Source of the DNA: a virus | Direction: 5' to 3' (one strand) | Length of the DNA stretch: 13,944 bases | UHGV virus genome: UHGV-1652516 | In this document: positions 1 through 2,928 of the stretch, piece after piece | Layout: the number at the start of each line of letters is the position of its first letter | How positions within the stretch are numbered: position 1 is the stretch's first letter | Translations under genes and position numbers: made by a program | The notes under the pieces: generated by a model | Database searches by the model: none | What the model was told of the DNA's origin: nothing | What the model saw: the letters and a program-made list of their open reading frames with translations, nothing else

Positions 1-434
1 GCCAGGTCGGCAGCCAAACGGAGAGCTTCAGGGAGACTCTGCGGAATAGCAGGTTGTAATCTTCCGGCTCGATAGTCGATAAATGTCTGGTTTACCTTCA
101 GCCGAAACGCGGGAGAAATCCAGCCTGCGTACTCCACAGCGAGCAATTCATGGGCAAAAGTGCCGCCGCCACGGCCTTCGAACGAAACTATGCAATTCTG
201 CATAGTTTCTTTTTCAAGCTCTTCGATGAGCTGTTTGGCTGACAGCGTTCTTAGCCATTGAGCTGGCGCTTTATGGGCACCGAGTCCGCTCGCTCTGTGT
301 AGAGCATTAAGGTTGTAACGGCCAGCGCGGTCGGTCGTAATTTCAACACCACAAATAACAGGCAGAGTCGTTGAAGGATCGACATTTTGATGAAGGTTTG
401 ATATATTCATATCCGCATTGAATGTTTGTTGCAT
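1..434 (-). CDS. Antirepressor-like protein with KilA-N-type N-terminal domain; 5' portion only, gene continues past the left edge of the window
   Basis: Minus-strand translation from ATG at 434..432 is open through position 1 (about 144 codons; absent from the ORF track because no stop lies in the window): MQQTFNADMNISNLHQNVDPSTTLPVICGVEITTDRAGRYNLNALHRASGLGAHKAPAQWLRTLSAKQLIEELEKETMQNCIVSFEGRGGGTFAHELLAVEYAGWISPAFRLKVNQTFIDYRAGRLQPAIPQSLPEALRLAADL. The core FEGRGGGTFAHELLAVEYAGWISPAFRLKV resembles the KilA-N domain. The terminal IPQSLPEALRLAADL matches IPQTLPEALRLAAELA in the neighbouring antirepressor. GGAG lies 6 nt upstream of the ATG. Confidence 0.65.
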   Translation of the reverse strand, partial: MQQTFNADMNISNLHQNVDPSTTLPVICGVEITTDRAGRYNLNALHRASGLGAHKAPAQWLRTLSAKQLIEELEKETMQNCIVSFEGRGGGTFAHELLAVEYAGWISPAFRLKVNQTFIDYRAGRLQPAIPQSLPEALRLAADL

Positions 435-461
435 TTTTTCTCCAAATTTGCATCAACCTTC

Positions 462-485
462 AATCACCAGCTCGAAATGGTGATT
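462..485. promoter_or_regulatory. Perfect palindrome AATCACCA-N8-TGGTGATT, candidate operator in the leader of the left antirepressor gene
   Basis: Seen directly: 8-bp arms 462..469 and 478..485 are exact reverse complements with an 8-bp spacer, 28-53 bp upstream of the ATG at 434 (minus strand). Function is inferred by analogy to operator sites in phage antirepressor control regions. Confidence 0.4.
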
Positions 486-562
486 CTTTGCACTTAGAAA
501 ACGAAATTTATTAGAGCAAATTTTTCTGACTCGATCCAGATCGGGTTGGTCGATCTGCTCAG

Positions 563-597
563 AAACCTGCCAGTTTGCTGGCAGGTTTTTTCTTTTG
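563..597 (+). terminator. Rho-independent terminator hairpin, strong on the plus strand, weaker on the minus strand
   Basis: Perfect 11-bp stem AAACCTGCCAG (563..573) / CTGGCAGGTTT (578..588) with a 4-nt loop TTTG, followed on the plus strand by a T-run TTTCTTTTG (589..597). It sits 1 bp past the stop (598..600) of the minus-strand antirepressor gene; on the minus strand it is preceded by an A-run but followed by only a short U stretch. Confidence 0.6.
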
Positions 598-1635
598 TTA
601 ACCTATTGCTACTGGTTTTAACAAACCAGCATCAAGTAGCTTGCGAGTTAACCACTGCTGGCCTTTACCCGTTAATTGGGGCGTCAGCCGTATCTGGTAG
701 CCATTTTCATCATCCAGCACCACTTCTTTCACCGTGAAATACCCGGCGTTGATGTACTGTTGGCGCGGTACGTTTTTGCGCGCACCAAAAGCCATGAGAA
801 TGCCGTTCTGGCGCAACCATGAGAAAAGGGCGTTTTGCTTAAGTCCAACGACCTTTGCAAAGTTCCCGATCAGGATTCCATTAGCCACTGATACCCGGTC
901 GGCAAAATCGACTTTAGGGGCTGCGGCCACCAGCTGTTGTTCCAGCTGCATTTTCTGTTCTGCCAACTCGGCAGCCAGGCGTAGAGCTTCTGGTAATGTT
1001 TGGGGGATCGATGGGGCAGGGGAGTTTGCCTGCTGCAATTCTTCCAGTTTGTCGATCAGCGAACGGCGGACCGCTTTTGACTCGCGCGCGGCGACTCGCA
1101 GGGCTTGTTTGAAAGTCATGGTTATGACAAGCATTGATGTTTTGTTCATTTTTTCCACTACACTTTTTGTGTAGTGCTCACCATCAAGCTCATCGAGTAT
1201 TTTTTCGATGAATTTGTTGTTCCGAACCTCTGGTTCCCCACATAACTTACGCGCTTCATTGACCATCTTTAACAGTGTCAGGCTGTCGATTGTGTCTCCG
1301 GTGTTGGAGATAACATTCACTGCTGGTGATGGCGTAGCTGAAGCAACAGGTGCTGGTTTTTCAACATTCAAATTATTACCGGTCATTCTGCGCGCCTCCT
1401 TTCTCATTTCTGCTGCCACTGTTGCGTAACGTAGACGTCCTTGTTCAATCAAATAATCCCTGATCTCGGCTATCAGTAGCCTGTTGATCACAGCCTTATC
1501 TGTTCGGGTATAAAAACGTCTGGTTATCATGAAATAGTTGGCAATTGCGCCGGGGATCTCCCGTGTCGGCATACAGGTTGTATGCAAAGCGATCGCTTCG
1601 GCTATTTCATTACGGGTGACGAGAGGTGTTTTCAT
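598..1635 (-). CDS. Phage antirepressor, 345 aa, with KilAC/ANT-type C-terminal domain; central region resembles Rha-type phage regulatory proteins
   Basis: 345-aa ORF. The C-terminal half (LPEALRLAAELAEQKMQLEQQLVAAAPKVDFADRVSVANGILIGNFAKVVGLKQNALFSWLRQNGIL...) has the pattern of the KilAC domain of phage antirepressors. The central segment (SLTLLKMVNEARKLCGEPEVRNNKFIEKILDEL) resembles the Rha regulatory family, a weaker by-eye call. GGGGGG lies 3 nt upstream of the ATG at 1635. Confidence 0.75.
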   Translation of the reverse strand: MKTPLVTRNEIAEAIALHTTCMPTREIPGAIANYFMITRRFYTRTDKAVINRLLIAEIRDYLIEQGRLRYATVAAEMRKEARRMTGNNLNVEKPAPVASATPSPAVNVISNTGDTIDSLTLLKMVNEARKLCGEPEVRNNKFIEKILDELDGEHYTKSVVEKMNKTSMLVITMTFKQALRVAARESKAVRRSLIDKLEELQQANSPAPSIPQTLPEALRLAAELAEQKMQLEQQLVAAAPKVDFADRVSVANGILIGNFAKVVGLKQNALFSWLRQNGILMAFGARKNVPRQQYINAGYFTVKEVVLDDENGYQIRLTPQLTGKGQQWLTRKLLDAGLLKPVAIG

Positions 1636-1853
1636 AAACCCCCCTGAACGTTGGCAGAGAAGGGGAGGCTCCAGTAACTAAGTGAATTGCGCGAGTCAGT
1701 TGAAAAACGGGCAGTAAAAATGCAGGGGCCATCAGGCAATTGAGAGCGTGCTTCGTCTTCAGTTGCTGAGATAACGAAGTGATAGTGGTGTTTTTTACAG
1801 GAATAGAAACGCCAGATGAATTCTGGGCGTGCGCAAGGATTGGCATTAACCAT
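1632..1853 (-). CDS. Hypothetical small protein (73 aa) possibly translationally coupled to the antirepressor gene
   Basis: Its TGA stop overlaps the antirepressor ATG in an ATGA arrangement (1635..1632), and GAGG lies 8 nt upstream of its ATG at 1853. Amino-acid composition (C/W/H-rich) is not convincingly protein-like, so this is a weak call. Confidence 0.25.
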   Translation of the reverse strand: MVNANPCARPEFIWRFYSCKKHHYHFVISATEDEARSQLPDGPCIFTARFSTDSRNSLSYWSLPFSANVQGGL

Positions 1854-2099
1854 AGTTACGGCCTCACAATCAGGTTTAACAACCTGCTACCCGCTGCTAA
1901 ACAGGTGGCAGGACGTGACGGGGTTAGCAGACTGGCGATTGTGAAACCAGCAGGCCGAAGGCTCCCCATCACGCCCCACCATAATTTGGGCGTAACGCGG
2001 TTTTACGGACACAAAAATACCGCAATATCGGATATCTGCGGCTGTCCGCACAATCATTCAGGCTGCTAAACCCGGTCGCAGAATTTGCTACGACGGCGG

Positions 2100-2253
2100 A
2101 ACTATAAGCCTGAACGATTAAAAGGTCAATATGATGCGAAAAGATAGCATTCGCGACTTAAAAATACAAATCTATTAGAGCATTATCTGATTAGTAAATA
2201 CACAACTGGATCTAATAACCTCTTTTTTTTAAAGGCGAAAATATGTACCCTAA
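2100..2253 (+). promoter_or_regulatory. AT-rich upstream region of the secreted-protein cassette; probable promoter region, exact -35/-10 not assigned
   Basis: Strongly AT-rich segment directly upstream of the first cassette gene with several TATAAT-like hexamers; no single convincing -35/-10 pair could be fixed by eye. Confidence 0.3.
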
Positions 2254-2280
2254 ATGAGTTATAAGGCAGGTGAGGTTATA

Positions 2281-2928
2281 ATGAGAAAACTATTACTACC
2301 GTTATTATTTATGGCTGGGACTGTTAATGCAGCATCAAGCGTAAAGGAGATTTGTACCGATTATACGAAATACCTTGGGCACGTTTACGGCTTTGCTGTC
2401 AGTCAAGACGAATCCATGCGCAAGAAGTTACTGTCAGATATGAAACGCCTTAAACTTTCTGAAGCGATGGTGCAGCAAGAACTGTATAAAGTCGCAACCA
2501 ACGAAAATGCTAAATATCAATATTCTCGCCTGTTAAATCCCGACGCAAACGAGATCAATCGAAGCTCTTTCGATTATATGGTAAAGGCATGCGAAACCGC
2601 TCCTGATTTTGCTATTCCTAGCTGGGGTGTGCTGGTGGCGAGCAATGCCGTTAATAAAGAAGACGTTGGAAGAAATGGCATTGATTCAATCAGAAACTCA
2701 CCGGGAATGCGCCATCAAAACGTTCAGGGTACGCTTGAAGAACGGGCCAGGGGGCCGGGTACAAACTCCCCAATGGGAAACCTCTCCCCGGAGGAATTGC
2801 AAGAGTATAACCAACGGATGGAGCAGTATGAGAAAGCTGCACGCGAAAAAATGGAACAACAAAAAAACGGATCTCTTAATACTTTCCAGCAAGGTTTAAA
2901 AGCGCTTAATTTACCCTATGAATGGTGA
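2281..2928 (+). CDS. Secreted (periplasmic) protein of unknown function with signal peptide; C-terminal region shares a motif with the tape measure protein
   Basis: Start placed at ATG 2281 rather than the track's 2254, because GGTGAGG lies 7 nt upstream and the product then begins with a canonical signal peptide MRKLLLPLLFMAGTVNA|ASS (basic n-region, hydrophobic core, V-N-A cleavage motif). No lipobox. AT-richer than the tail genes. Contains NSPGMRHQNVQGTLEERARGPGT, which recurs in the 1130-aa protein. Confidence 0.75.
   Translation: MRKLLLPLLFMAGTVNAASSVKEICTDYTKYLGHVYGFAVSQDESMRKKLLSDMKRLKLSEAMVQQELYKVATNENAKYQYSRLLNPDANEINRSSFDYMVKACETAPDFAIPSWGVLVASNAVNKEDVGRNGIDSIRNSPGMRHQNVQGTLEERARGPGTNSPMGNLSPEELQEYNQRMEQYEKAAREKMEQQKNGSLNTFQQGLKALNLPYEW

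What the first reader, a model, noticed from the sequence alone, without database searches (positions are those of the whole stretch)
379..597. Operator-plus-antisense-RNA layout in the spacer between two tandem antirepressor genes
Three things lie in 220 bp. A perfect palindrome AATCACCA-N8-TGGTGATT (462..485) sits in the leader of the left antirepressor gene. A strong plus-strand intrinsic terminator (563..597) points opposite to both antirepressor genes. A plausible sigma-70 promoter lies on the plus strand inside the 5' end of the left gene (TCGACA at 379..384, 17-bp spacer, TATATT at 402..407). A transcript from that promoter to the terminator would be about 180 nt and antisense to the Shine-Dalgarno and start codon of the left antirepressor gene (432..450), analogous in logic to the sar antisense RNA of the P22 immI region. 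The two antirepressor genes also share a C-terminal module (IPQ(S/T)LPEALRLAA) behind different N-terminal modules (KilA-N-type versus Rha-like), which points to domain shuffling.
Basis: partly seen in the sequence, partly recalled or inferred. Interest (0 to 1): 0.5.

Follow-up and report, generated by a model that had tools for sequence, protein, structure and literature searches.

The report
Known phage P1 kilA antisense-RNA control region

Summary
All three sequence elements are present at the stated coordinates. The window is a P1-like phage, 99.9% identical to vB_EcoM-Ro157c2YLVW and 95.5% to P1. Region 340-640 is about 99% identical to P1.

In the curated P1 record, the plus-strand promoter at 379-407 is PaskilA (formerly P53as). 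Its mapped start for an "RNA antisense to 5' region of kilA" falls at window 415. The terminator at 561-596 predicts an RNA of about 179 nt, matching the published 180-base transcript (Heinrich et al. 1995).

The left gene is kilA, the first gene of the kilA-repL lytic replicon. The right gene is ant1/ant2.

The C1 operator Op53 lies at 504-520, the promoter P53 has its -10 at 510-515 and -35 at 533-538, and there are three GATC sites.

The palindrome at 462-485 is not annotated in P1 or P7 and occurs only once in the genome. It lies downstream of both transcription starts, and nothing supports calling it an operator. It most plausibly forms a stem-loop in both the antisense RNA and the kilA leader.

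The shared KilAC C-terminal domain is confirmed. The "Rha-like" label for the Ant1 N-terminus is not. Verdict: already known, low interest.

The parts
1..434 (-). kilA, 5' part (144 codons; the gene runs off the left end of the window). It has a KilA-N domain, and the KilAC domain begins at the window edge.
   Evidence: Pfam KilA-N, E 1e-21. About 99% DNA identity to P1 kilA.
439..444 (-). kilA ribosome-binding site (TGGAGA on the minus strand)
   Evidence: RBS feature of P1 record X15638 mapped onto the window; sequence read.
379..407 (+). PaskilA (= P53as), a sigma-70 promoter for the antisense RNA: -35 TCGACA at 379-384, -10 TATATT at 402-407, with an extended -10 TG
   Evidence: Consensus scan. 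P1 annotation 'sigma 70 promoter PaskilA; corresponds to former P53as' at L001 1879-1907, which equals window 379-407. This stretch is identical to P1.
415..594 (+). Antisense RNA (as-kilA), about 179 nt. It is complementary to kilA codons 1-7, the RBS and the whole kilA leader (415 to about 503). It then runs across Op53/P53 to the terminator.
   Evidence: The P1 feature 'transcription start site of RNA antisense to 5' region of kilA' at L001 1915 equals window 415. The 3' end is predicted from the terminator. Fold energy -56.8 kcal/mol, z -4.72, with the anti-SD sequence UCUCC (439-443) in an apical loop.
462..485 (.). Perfect 8-bp palindrome with an 8-nt spacer, function unproven. It is predicted to form a stem-loop in both the antisense RNA and the kilA leader. 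It lies at about +18 to +41 from the P53 start and at +48 to +71 from the PaskilA start.
   Evidence: -9.9 and -10.2 kcal/mol. Unique in the 80.7-kb genome. Not annotated in P1 or P7. The few variants fall in the loop or the closing pair, plus one A466G change.
504..520 (-). C1 repressor operator Op53 (OrepL), TTTGCTCTAATAAATTT. This is the real operator of the region.
   Evidence: 16 of 17 matches to the C1 consensus. There are only two such sites in the window, and no shuffle gave two. P1 protein_bind feature and P7 feature.
510..538 (-). P53 (PkilA), the sense promoter of kilA-repL: -10 TCTAAT at 515-510 and -35 TGGATC at 538-533. The inferred start is near 503.
   Evidence: P1 annotation mapped onto the window; hexamers identical to P1. 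The start position is inferred from the -10.
533..555 (.). Three GATC (Dam) sites at 533-536, 539-542 and 552-555; the first lies within the -35 of P53.
   Evidence: P1 annotation 'Dam methylation site 1-3 within the regulatory region of kilA'; sequence read.
561..596 (+). Intrinsic terminator of the antisense RNA: a 13-pair stem, a 4-nt loop, then U6CU4. On the minus strand the same hairpin is followed by only UUU, so it is at best a weak terminator for ant.
   Evidence: The hairpin stays next to the kilA control region in variants that carry a roughly 480-bp insertion between it and the ant stop codon.
598..1635 (-). ant1 (345 aa), with the in-frame ant2 start at 1386. This is the last gene of the immI operon and has a C-terminal KilAC domain.
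   Evidence: Pfam ANT, E 1.3e-30. P1 annotation. Ant2 translation compared with P1.

Best explanation
The finding is the control region of the phage P1-type lytic replicon, and it is intact in this P1-like phage.

**Layout.** The sense promoter P53 (-35 at 533-538, -10 at 510-515, minus strand) transcribes kilA and then repL. The phage C1 repressor shuts it off by binding the 17-bp operator Op53 (504-520), which overlaps the -10. About 88 bp downstream, inside the first codons of kilA, the convergent promoter PaskilA/P53as (379-407, plus strand) is not under C1 control. It starts an RNA at 415 that stops at the intrinsic terminator at 561-596, giving about 179 nt.

**What the antisense RNA covers.** It is complementary to the whole kilA 5' leader, the ribosome-binding site and the first seven codons. 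Its synthesis also drives RNA polymerase across P53 itself.

**What is shown.** Work on P1 established the promoter, the start site, the 180-base transcript, its insensitivity to C1, mutual inhibition between P53 and P53as, and raised repL transcription and replication in a P53as-down mutant.

**What is inferred here.** This phage behaves the same way, because every element is identical or nearly identical. Inhibition probably combines two effects: transcriptional interference between the converging promoters, and RNA-RNA pairing that blocks kilA translation and destabilises the kilA-repL mRNA.

**The palindrome.** I read 462-485 as an RNA element rather than a protein operator. It forms complementary 8-bp stem / 8-nt loop hairpins in both the antisense RNA and the kilA leader. 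The loops (GCUCGAAA and UUUCGAGC) could nucleate pairing, together with the anti-SD loop at 439-443. This part is a hypothesis only.
For: - **Identity with P1.** Window 1-2300 is 95.5% identical to P1 and 99.9% to a P1-like phage. Region 340-640 differs from P1 at 4 substitutions and one T in the T-run, none of them in a promoter hexamer, the operator, the palindrome or the terminator stem.
- **Curated P1 features map exactly.** PaskilA/P53as falls at 379-407, the antisense start at 415, Op53 at 504-520, P53 at 510-538 and the Dam sites at 533-555.
- **Operator.** Op53 matches the C1 consensus at 16 of 17 positions. The only other such site in the window is Op51 at 2168-2184.
- **Terminator.** It is called only on the + strand, at -19.9 kcal/mol. 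A start at 415 and an end near 594 give about 179 nt, against the published 180-base transcript (Heinrich et al. 1995, NAR 23:1468, cited in PMC9948254; the abstract details are from my own knowledge).
- **Structure of the antisense RNA.** The predicted RNA is unusually structured (z -4.72, 0 of 200 shuffles as stable) and places the anti-SD in an apical loop.
- **Gene content.** The left gene has a KilA-N domain. In the 99.9%-identical phage genome, the gene after kilA is 98% identical to P1 RepL.
- **Linkage of the terminator.** It stays attached to the kilA control region when a roughly 480-bp insertion separates it from ant.
- **Conservation.** The 219-bp element is at least 95% conserved in 510 of 5426 complete E. 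coli genomes, almost always on P1-like plasmids, and in 501 PLSDB plasmids.
Against: - Nothing here measures transcription, so function in this particular phage rests on sequence identity with P1.
- I could not read the primary paper because it is not held. The experimental details come from the GenBank annotation and from memory of the abstract.
- The split between transcriptional interference and RNA pairing is not resolved.
- For the palindrome-as-RNA-hairpin idea there is no covariation. All relatives are at least 97% identical, no pair changes on both sides, and variable sites are no rarer in the stem than in the surrounding leader.
- A perfect 8-bp inverted repeat arises by chance in about 7% of simulated 219-bp regions.
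Confidence: 0.93

Rival explanations
1. One reading: the palindrome at 462-485 is a DNA operator bound by a dimeric repressor (from the phage, from the host, or KilA itself through its KilA-N domain). Bound there, the protein would control the left gene, for example as a roadblock to transcription from P53.
For: It is a perfect 8+8 palindrome whose half-site centres are 16 bp apart, and it lies in the kilA leader. It is almost invariant across about 145 P1-like contigs. KilA-N is a predicted DNA-binding domain (plus general knowledge of the family).
Against: - It is not annotated in the densely curated P1 and P7 records, which list the C1, IHF and C4 binding sites of this region.
- Neither the palindrome nor a 3-mismatch variant occurs again in the window, and no second copy exists in the 80.7-kb genome.
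- It overlaps no promoter core: it lies at about +18 to +41 from P53 and at +48 to +71 from PaskilA.
- The known operator, Op53, lies elsewhere.
- Its invariance is no greater than that of the surrounding leader.
- Distant KilA-N loci have no comparable inverted repeat upstream.
Confidence: 0.1
2. Pure transcriptional interference. PaskilA acts only because polymerases from the two convergent promoters, 88 bp apart, collide or occlude each other. On this view the 180-nt RNA is a by-product with no pairing function, and the palindrome is incidental.
For: The antisense transcript runs straight across the -10, the -35 and the operator of P53 (coordinates). Mutual inhibition of P53 and P53as was reported in P1 (my recollection of the Heinrich 1995 abstract). 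The kilA leader alone is not significantly structured (z -0.19).
Against: The antisense RNA is strongly structured (z -4.72) and has a proper terminator. Its anti-SD sequence sits in an apical loop, and a second hairpin has a loop complementary to its target. These are features typical of pairing antisense RNAs. Neither mechanism can be tested with the tools available here.
Confidence: 0.3
3. The hairpin at 561-596 is simply the terminator of the ant operon on the minus strand, and the plus-strand promoter-like hexamers are a chance match, so no antisense RNA exists.
For: The hairpin begins 2 nt after the ant stop codon. Promoter-like sites are no more frequent than chance in this region: 3 found against 2.8 expected.
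Against: On the minus strand the hairpin is followed by only three U residues, and the scan does not call it there. The P1 record documents the promoter and a mapped antisense start at the identical sequence. In the insertion variants the hairpin stays with the kilA side, not with ant.
Confidence: 0.03

Closest known systems
Phage P1/P7 lytic-replicon control region: Op53-P53 with antisense promoter P53as (PaskilA) and its 180-base transcript (Heinrich et al. 1995, NAR 23:1468; annotated in GenBank AF234172)
   Same: This is the same element. The promoter hexamers, spacer, start-site context, C1 operator, P53 hexamers, three Dam sites, palindrome and terminator stem are all identical. The flanking genes are the same: ant1/2 upstream and kilA(-repL) downstream.
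   Different: Over 300 bp there are only 4 point differences (360, 369, 531, 550) and a T-run of 6 instead of 7. None touches an annotated element.
Phage P22 immI sar RNA (a small antisense RNA against the ant ribosome-binding site)
   Same: The logic is the same. A constitutive promoter converges on the promoter of a lytic-switch gene and makes a short cis-antisense RNA that covers that gene's RBS and start codon.
   Different: - There is no sequence or structure homology: no Rfam sar match even at E<=1.
- sar is about 69 nt and lies in the arc-ant spacer (my own knowledge).
- Here the RNA is about 179 nt. Its target is kilA-repL (the lytic replication operon), not the antirepressor.
- The RNA also reads through the sense promoter and operator.
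- P1's own ant is controlled by a different RNA, C4.
P1/P7 C4 antisense RNA (Rfam RF01695) of the immI operon
   Same: It is encoded in the same window (1901-1986, minus strand, 62.7 bits). It is also an RNA repressor of a lytic-switch function.
   Different: C4 is processed from the same transcript as its targets and acts on the a2/b2 sites ahead of icd-ant. It is not a convergent cis-antisense transcript and is unrelated in sequence to the 415-594 RNA.

Membership tests
P1-type PaskilA/P53as antisense control of the lytic replicon | A sigma-70 promoter on the strand opposite kilA, inside its first codons, with the P1 hexamers and spacing | tested here: met
   TCGACA-17-TATATT at 379-407. It coincides with the P1 PaskilA feature and is 100% identical to P1 over 370-530.
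P1-type PaskilA/P53as antisense control of the lytic replicon | An antisense transcript of about 180 nt that ends at an intrinsic terminator | tested here: met
   The mapped P1 start corresponds to window 415. The plus-strand terminator at 561-596 predicts about 179 nt. This is a prediction; no RNA was measured.
P1-type PaskilA/P53as antisense control of the lytic replicon | A convergent sense promoter P53 overlapped by a C1 operator (Op53) | tested here: met
   Operator at 504-520, 16 of 17 matches to the consensus. P53 hexamers are identical to P1.
P1-type PaskilA/P53as antisense control of the lytic replicon | A kilA-repL operon as the target | tested here: met
   kilA has a KilA-N domain. 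repL lies beyond the window edge. In the 99.9%-identical phage genome, the gene after kilA is 98% identical to P1 RepL.
P1-type PaskilA/P53as antisense control of the lytic replicon | Constitutive, C1-independent transcription that lowers repL expression | not testable with these tools
   This needs RNA and reporter measurements. It is known for P1 only from the literature (reference cited).
P22 sar RNA family | Sequence and structure homology to sar (Rfam model) | tested here: not met
   The Rfam scan of 1-2600 at E<=1 gave no sar hit. The only hit in the region was a sub-threshold ctRNA_p42d match on the terminator (21 bits against a gathering score of 50).
P22 sar RNA family | Location in an arc-ant spacer of an Mnt/Arc-controlled immI region | tested here: not met
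   The flanking genes are ant1/2 and kilA, and the region is controlled by C1 operators and C4 RNA.
   It lies downstream of both transcription starts (coordinates). There is a single copy in the window, even allowing 3 mismatches, and a single copy in the 80.7-kb genome.
   137 of 144 P1-like contigs from the two pattern scans carry the identical palindrome (88 of 94 viral contigs; 49 of 50 metagenome contigs). However, the whole leader is equally invariant.
KilAC (Pfam ANT, PF03374) domain proteins | A C-terminal ANT/KilAC domain in both flanking proteins | tested here: met
   Ant1 E 1.3e-30 and P1 KilA E 2e-32. The two share 65% identity over 136 aa.
   No Pfam hit apart from a spurious Kinesin_assoc match at E 0.013. 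No NCBIfam hit.

The most novel reading that the evidence does not exclude
The palindrome at 462-485 is unannotated in P1, yet it may be a functional part of the antisense system. On this reading it forms the recognition stem-loop whose complementary 8-nt loops start a kissing interaction between the 180-nt RNA and the kilA leader. Each loop contains a YUNR-type tetranucleotide (CUCG and UUCG). The RNA product would then matter, not just convergent transcription. A less likely version is that the palindrome binds a still-unknown protein.
Probability: 0.3. Interest if true: 0.25.

Novelty: already known. Interest (0 to 1): 0.1.

Why it matters
This region controls when P1-type phage-plasmids switch on lytic replication. 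It also regulates the repL replicon used in PAC/P1 cloning vectors. The element occurs in about 9% of complete E. coli genomes, where RefSeq annotates only the coding genes. Transferring the P1 features (PaskilA, Op53, P53, terminator) would therefore improve annotation of many plasmids. It adds no new biology. The only open points are the role of the palindrome, and how much of the inhibition comes from RNA pairing rather than transcriptional interference.

Tried and rejected
- **Primary literature.** I tried to read Lobocka 2004 (PMC523184) and Heinrich 1995 (by DOI and as PMC306884). None is held. Full-text searches for P53as, PaskilA and Op53 found only a citing paper.
- **Covariation on 42 distinct P1-like sequences of the antisense RNA.** It was uninformative. 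No pair changes on both sides, and the shuffles equal the observed value. The helix 526-535/540-549 keeps pairing through G-U in every haplotype, including one with five adjacent transitions. However, 8 of 10 possible transitions in that arm would be neutral anyway, so I reject this as evidence.
- **Search for relatives of intermediate divergence.** tblastn of KilA against phages jumps from 99% to below 50% identity. The genome-contig scan found only KilA-N homologues of 56-72% identity in Chromatium, Thiocystis and Symbiopectobacterium. Their upstream regions are unrelated, with no comparable palindrome or antisense layout.
- **Pattern scans with the palindrome masked.** Scans of viral and metagenome contigs returned only near-identical copies, plus one unrelated chance match (L209).
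- **Rfam.** There is no family for this RNA.
- **Host-factor sites.** Recalling known motifs for IHF, DnaA and NtrC gave no convincing match to the palindrome. This is from memory and was not a formal test.
- **More copies of the palindrome.** None in the window or the genome.

Full report
**What the window is.**
A megablast of window 1-2300 against phage records gives 99.9% identity to Escherichia phage vB_EcoM-Ro157c2YLVW and 95.5% to phage P1, over the full length. The matched P1 segment carries c4, icd, ant1/ant2 and kilA. This is the junction between the immI immunity operon and the lytic replicon.

An alignment of window 340-640 with the curated P1 record AF234172 is about 99% identical. 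It has four substitutions (360, 369, 531, 550) and one fewer T in the T-run. Up to that T-run, P1 features transfer by the rule window = L001 - 1500.

**Checking the observation.**
- The palindrome AATCACCA-N8-TGGTGATT lies at 462-485.
- The plus-strand terminator has 13 pairs at 561-590, followed by T6CT4. The scan calls it on the + strand only. It folds at -19.9 kcal/mol, z -4.3.
- The promoter is TCGACA-17-TATATT at 379-407, with 10 of 12 matches and an extended -10 TG.
- The left gene starts at 434 on the minus strand. Its RBS at 439-444 matches the RBS feature in X15638.

On sequence statistics alone these features are unremarkable. Promoter-like sites are at chance density, 3 found against 2.8 expected. 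A perfect 8-bp inverted repeat appears in about 6.6% of simulated 219-bp regions.

**What it is.**
The curated P1 annotation places these features in the stretch:
- "sigma 70 promoter PaskilA; corresponds to former P53as" at window 379-407.
- [quoted passage not shown] at window 415.
- The C1-controlled operator OrepL/Op53 at 504-520 (minus strand).
- The sense promoter PkilA/P53, with its -10 at 510-515 and -35 at 533-538 (minus strand).
- Three Dam sites at 533-536, 539-542 and 552-555.

I confirmed the operator independently. The C1 consensus ATTGCTCTAATAAATTT, allowing up to 3 mismatches, hits the window only twice: at 504-520 (1 mismatch, Op53) and at 2168-2184 (2 mismatches, Op51 ahead of c4). 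None of 200 shuffles gave two hits. P7 annotates the same operator.

A start at 415 and termination in the U-tract after the 561-590 hairpin give an RNA of about 179 nt. The published P53as product is a 180-base transcript (Heinrich et al. [quoted passage not shown] That reference is cited in PMC9948254. The paper itself is not held, so the details of its abstract come from my own knowledge. The same citing paper states that P53 drives kilA and repL and is repressed by C1 at Op53.

The left gene is kilA: KilA-N domain, E 1e-21. The right gene is ant1, with the in-frame ant2 start at 1386. In the near-identical phage genome, the gene after kilA is 98% identical to P1 RepL.

**How it works.**
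P53 and PaskilA are convergent promoters whose starts lie about 88 bp apart. P53 is shut off by C1. PaskilA is not (literature).

The antisense RNA overlaps the entire kilA leader, the RBS and seven codons (415 to about 503). It then reads across Op53 and P53 to the terminator. Two mechanisms are therefore available: transcriptional interference and RNA-RNA pairing.

The predicted RNA is strongly structured (-56.8 kcal/mol, z -4.72). It has four modules:
- A 5' domain with the anti-SD sequence UCUCC (439-443) in an apical loop.
- The palindrome hairpin.
- A hairpin over the Dam-site cluster (514-560).
- The terminator.

These features suit a pairing antisense RNA but do not prove pairing. I put pure transcriptional interference at about 0.3.

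The terminator belongs to the kilA side. In four related contigs (L004, L029, L091, L095) homology to the window ends just after the hairpin. In L004 and L095 I confirmed a roughly 480-bp insertion between the T-tract and the ant stop codon, which leaves PaskilA-to-terminator intact. On the minus strand the hairpin is followed by only UUU.

**The palindrome.**
This is the one element not accounted for by the P1 record. The evidence is as follows.
- It is unannotated in P1 and P7.
- It has no second copy in the window, even with 3 mismatches, and none in the 80.7-kb genome.
- It lies downstream of both transcription starts rather than over a promoter.
- It folds as an 8-bp stem with an 8-nt loop in either RNA (-9.9 and -10.2 kcal/mol).
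- The two pattern scans returned 144 P1-like contigs, 137 of them with the identical palindrome. Their variants were three: two loop changes and a change in the loop-closing pair.
- One further variant, a G-U-compatible A466G, came from a related genome contig.
- The surrounding leader is just as invariant, so there is no detectable extra constraint.

No relatives of intermediate divergence exist. KilA identity falls from 99% to 72% or less. Distant KilA-N loci lack any such repeat.

An RNA recognition stem-loop is the more plausible function (about 0.3), and no function at all remains possible.

**The domain claim.**
KilA consists of KilA-N plus ANT/KilAC. Ant1 has ANT/KilAC only. The two C-terminal parts share 65% identity over 136 residues, beginning at the IPQ(S/T)LPEALRLAA motif. 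Shuffling of KilAC behind different N-terminal modules is a known feature of this protein family (my own knowledge). The Ant1 N-terminus gives no Rha hit and no other credible hit.

**Comparison and novelty.**
The region is a member of the P1 P53as/PaskilA system; effectively it is the same allele. It works like P22 sar but is not homologous to it: there is no Rfam sar match, and the gene context and target differ. No Rfam family covers this RNA.

The 219-bp element is at least 95% conserved in 510 of 5426 complete E. coli genomes, with 508 of 519 places on plasmids, and in 501 PLSDB plasmids. In those records only the coding genes are annotated.

**Verdict.**
The system is already known. Interest is 0.1.

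Noticed in passing
window 184-209 (+), inside kilA; L010 1674-1701 (-): An 11-bp perfect hairpin followed by T5 lies on the strand antisense to kilA (z -5.73; called terminator-like). It sits within the codons for EKETMQNCIVS. The same palindrome, with the same codon choices, is present in the Chromatium okenii KilA-N homologue (72% aa identity), although the flanking DNA is only about 70% identical. Two other homologues lack this segment. It may be an insulating terminator for antisense transcription upstream of PaskilA, or an mRNA structure. It remains unexplained.
   Followed up: partly
window 1901-1986 (-), 2055-2107 (-), 2168-2184 (-): The window contains C4 antisense RNA (Rfam RF01695, 62.7 bits) and its a1/b1 target element (RF03163, 55.5 bits). 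A second C1 operator (Op51, 2 mismatches) is also present. Together these are the known immI control elements for icd-ant.
   Followed up: partly
L004 1290-1776; also L095, L091 and L029 (between the terminator and the ant stop codon): Four related contigs lose homology to the window just after the terminator. In the two inspected (L004, an E. albertii plasmid, and L095) there is a roughly 480-bp insertion exactly between the antisense terminator and ant. In L004 it encodes a 38-aa hydrophobic ORF (MTLQKACKWIVTNIIVPVIIGASSSVLASVIASLLHIA) flanked by terminator-like hairpins on both strands. This is reminiscent of a type I toxin-antitoxin cassette. There is no Pfam hit, and only a sub-threshold rdlD-like Rfam hit.
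   Followed up: partly
window 527-531 and 550: A polymorphism hot spot lies in the spacer of P53. Five adjacent positions vary by transitions among P1-like contigs (for example CTGACTC against CCAGTCC), and T/A alternates at 550. The rest of the control region is nearly invariant. All haplotypes keep the plus-strand RNA helix 526-535/540-549 through G-U pairs, but this is not statistically significant.
   Followed up: partly
window about 1120-1180 (ant1/ant2 central part): Ant of this phage differs from P1 Ant in a short central segment (TKSVVEKMNKTSMLVITMT against TKSAKSHGTRAGRSFEVITMT, a 2-codon length difference). The C-terminal KilAC part is identical.
   Followed up: no
L008 (a MAG labelled Bacillota bacterium, 2.9-kb contig) and L015 (Acinetobacter idrijaensis, 251-bp contig): Short contigs 99-100% identical to P1 kilA are filed under unrelated taxa. 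This most likely reflects contamination or mis-binning rather than a true host range.
   Followed up: no
E. coli genome hits, e.g. NZ_LR134222.1 4715347-4715565: 11 of the 519 places holding this control region are on E. coli chromosomes rather than plasmids. This suggests integrated or mis-assembled P1-like elements.
   Followed up: no
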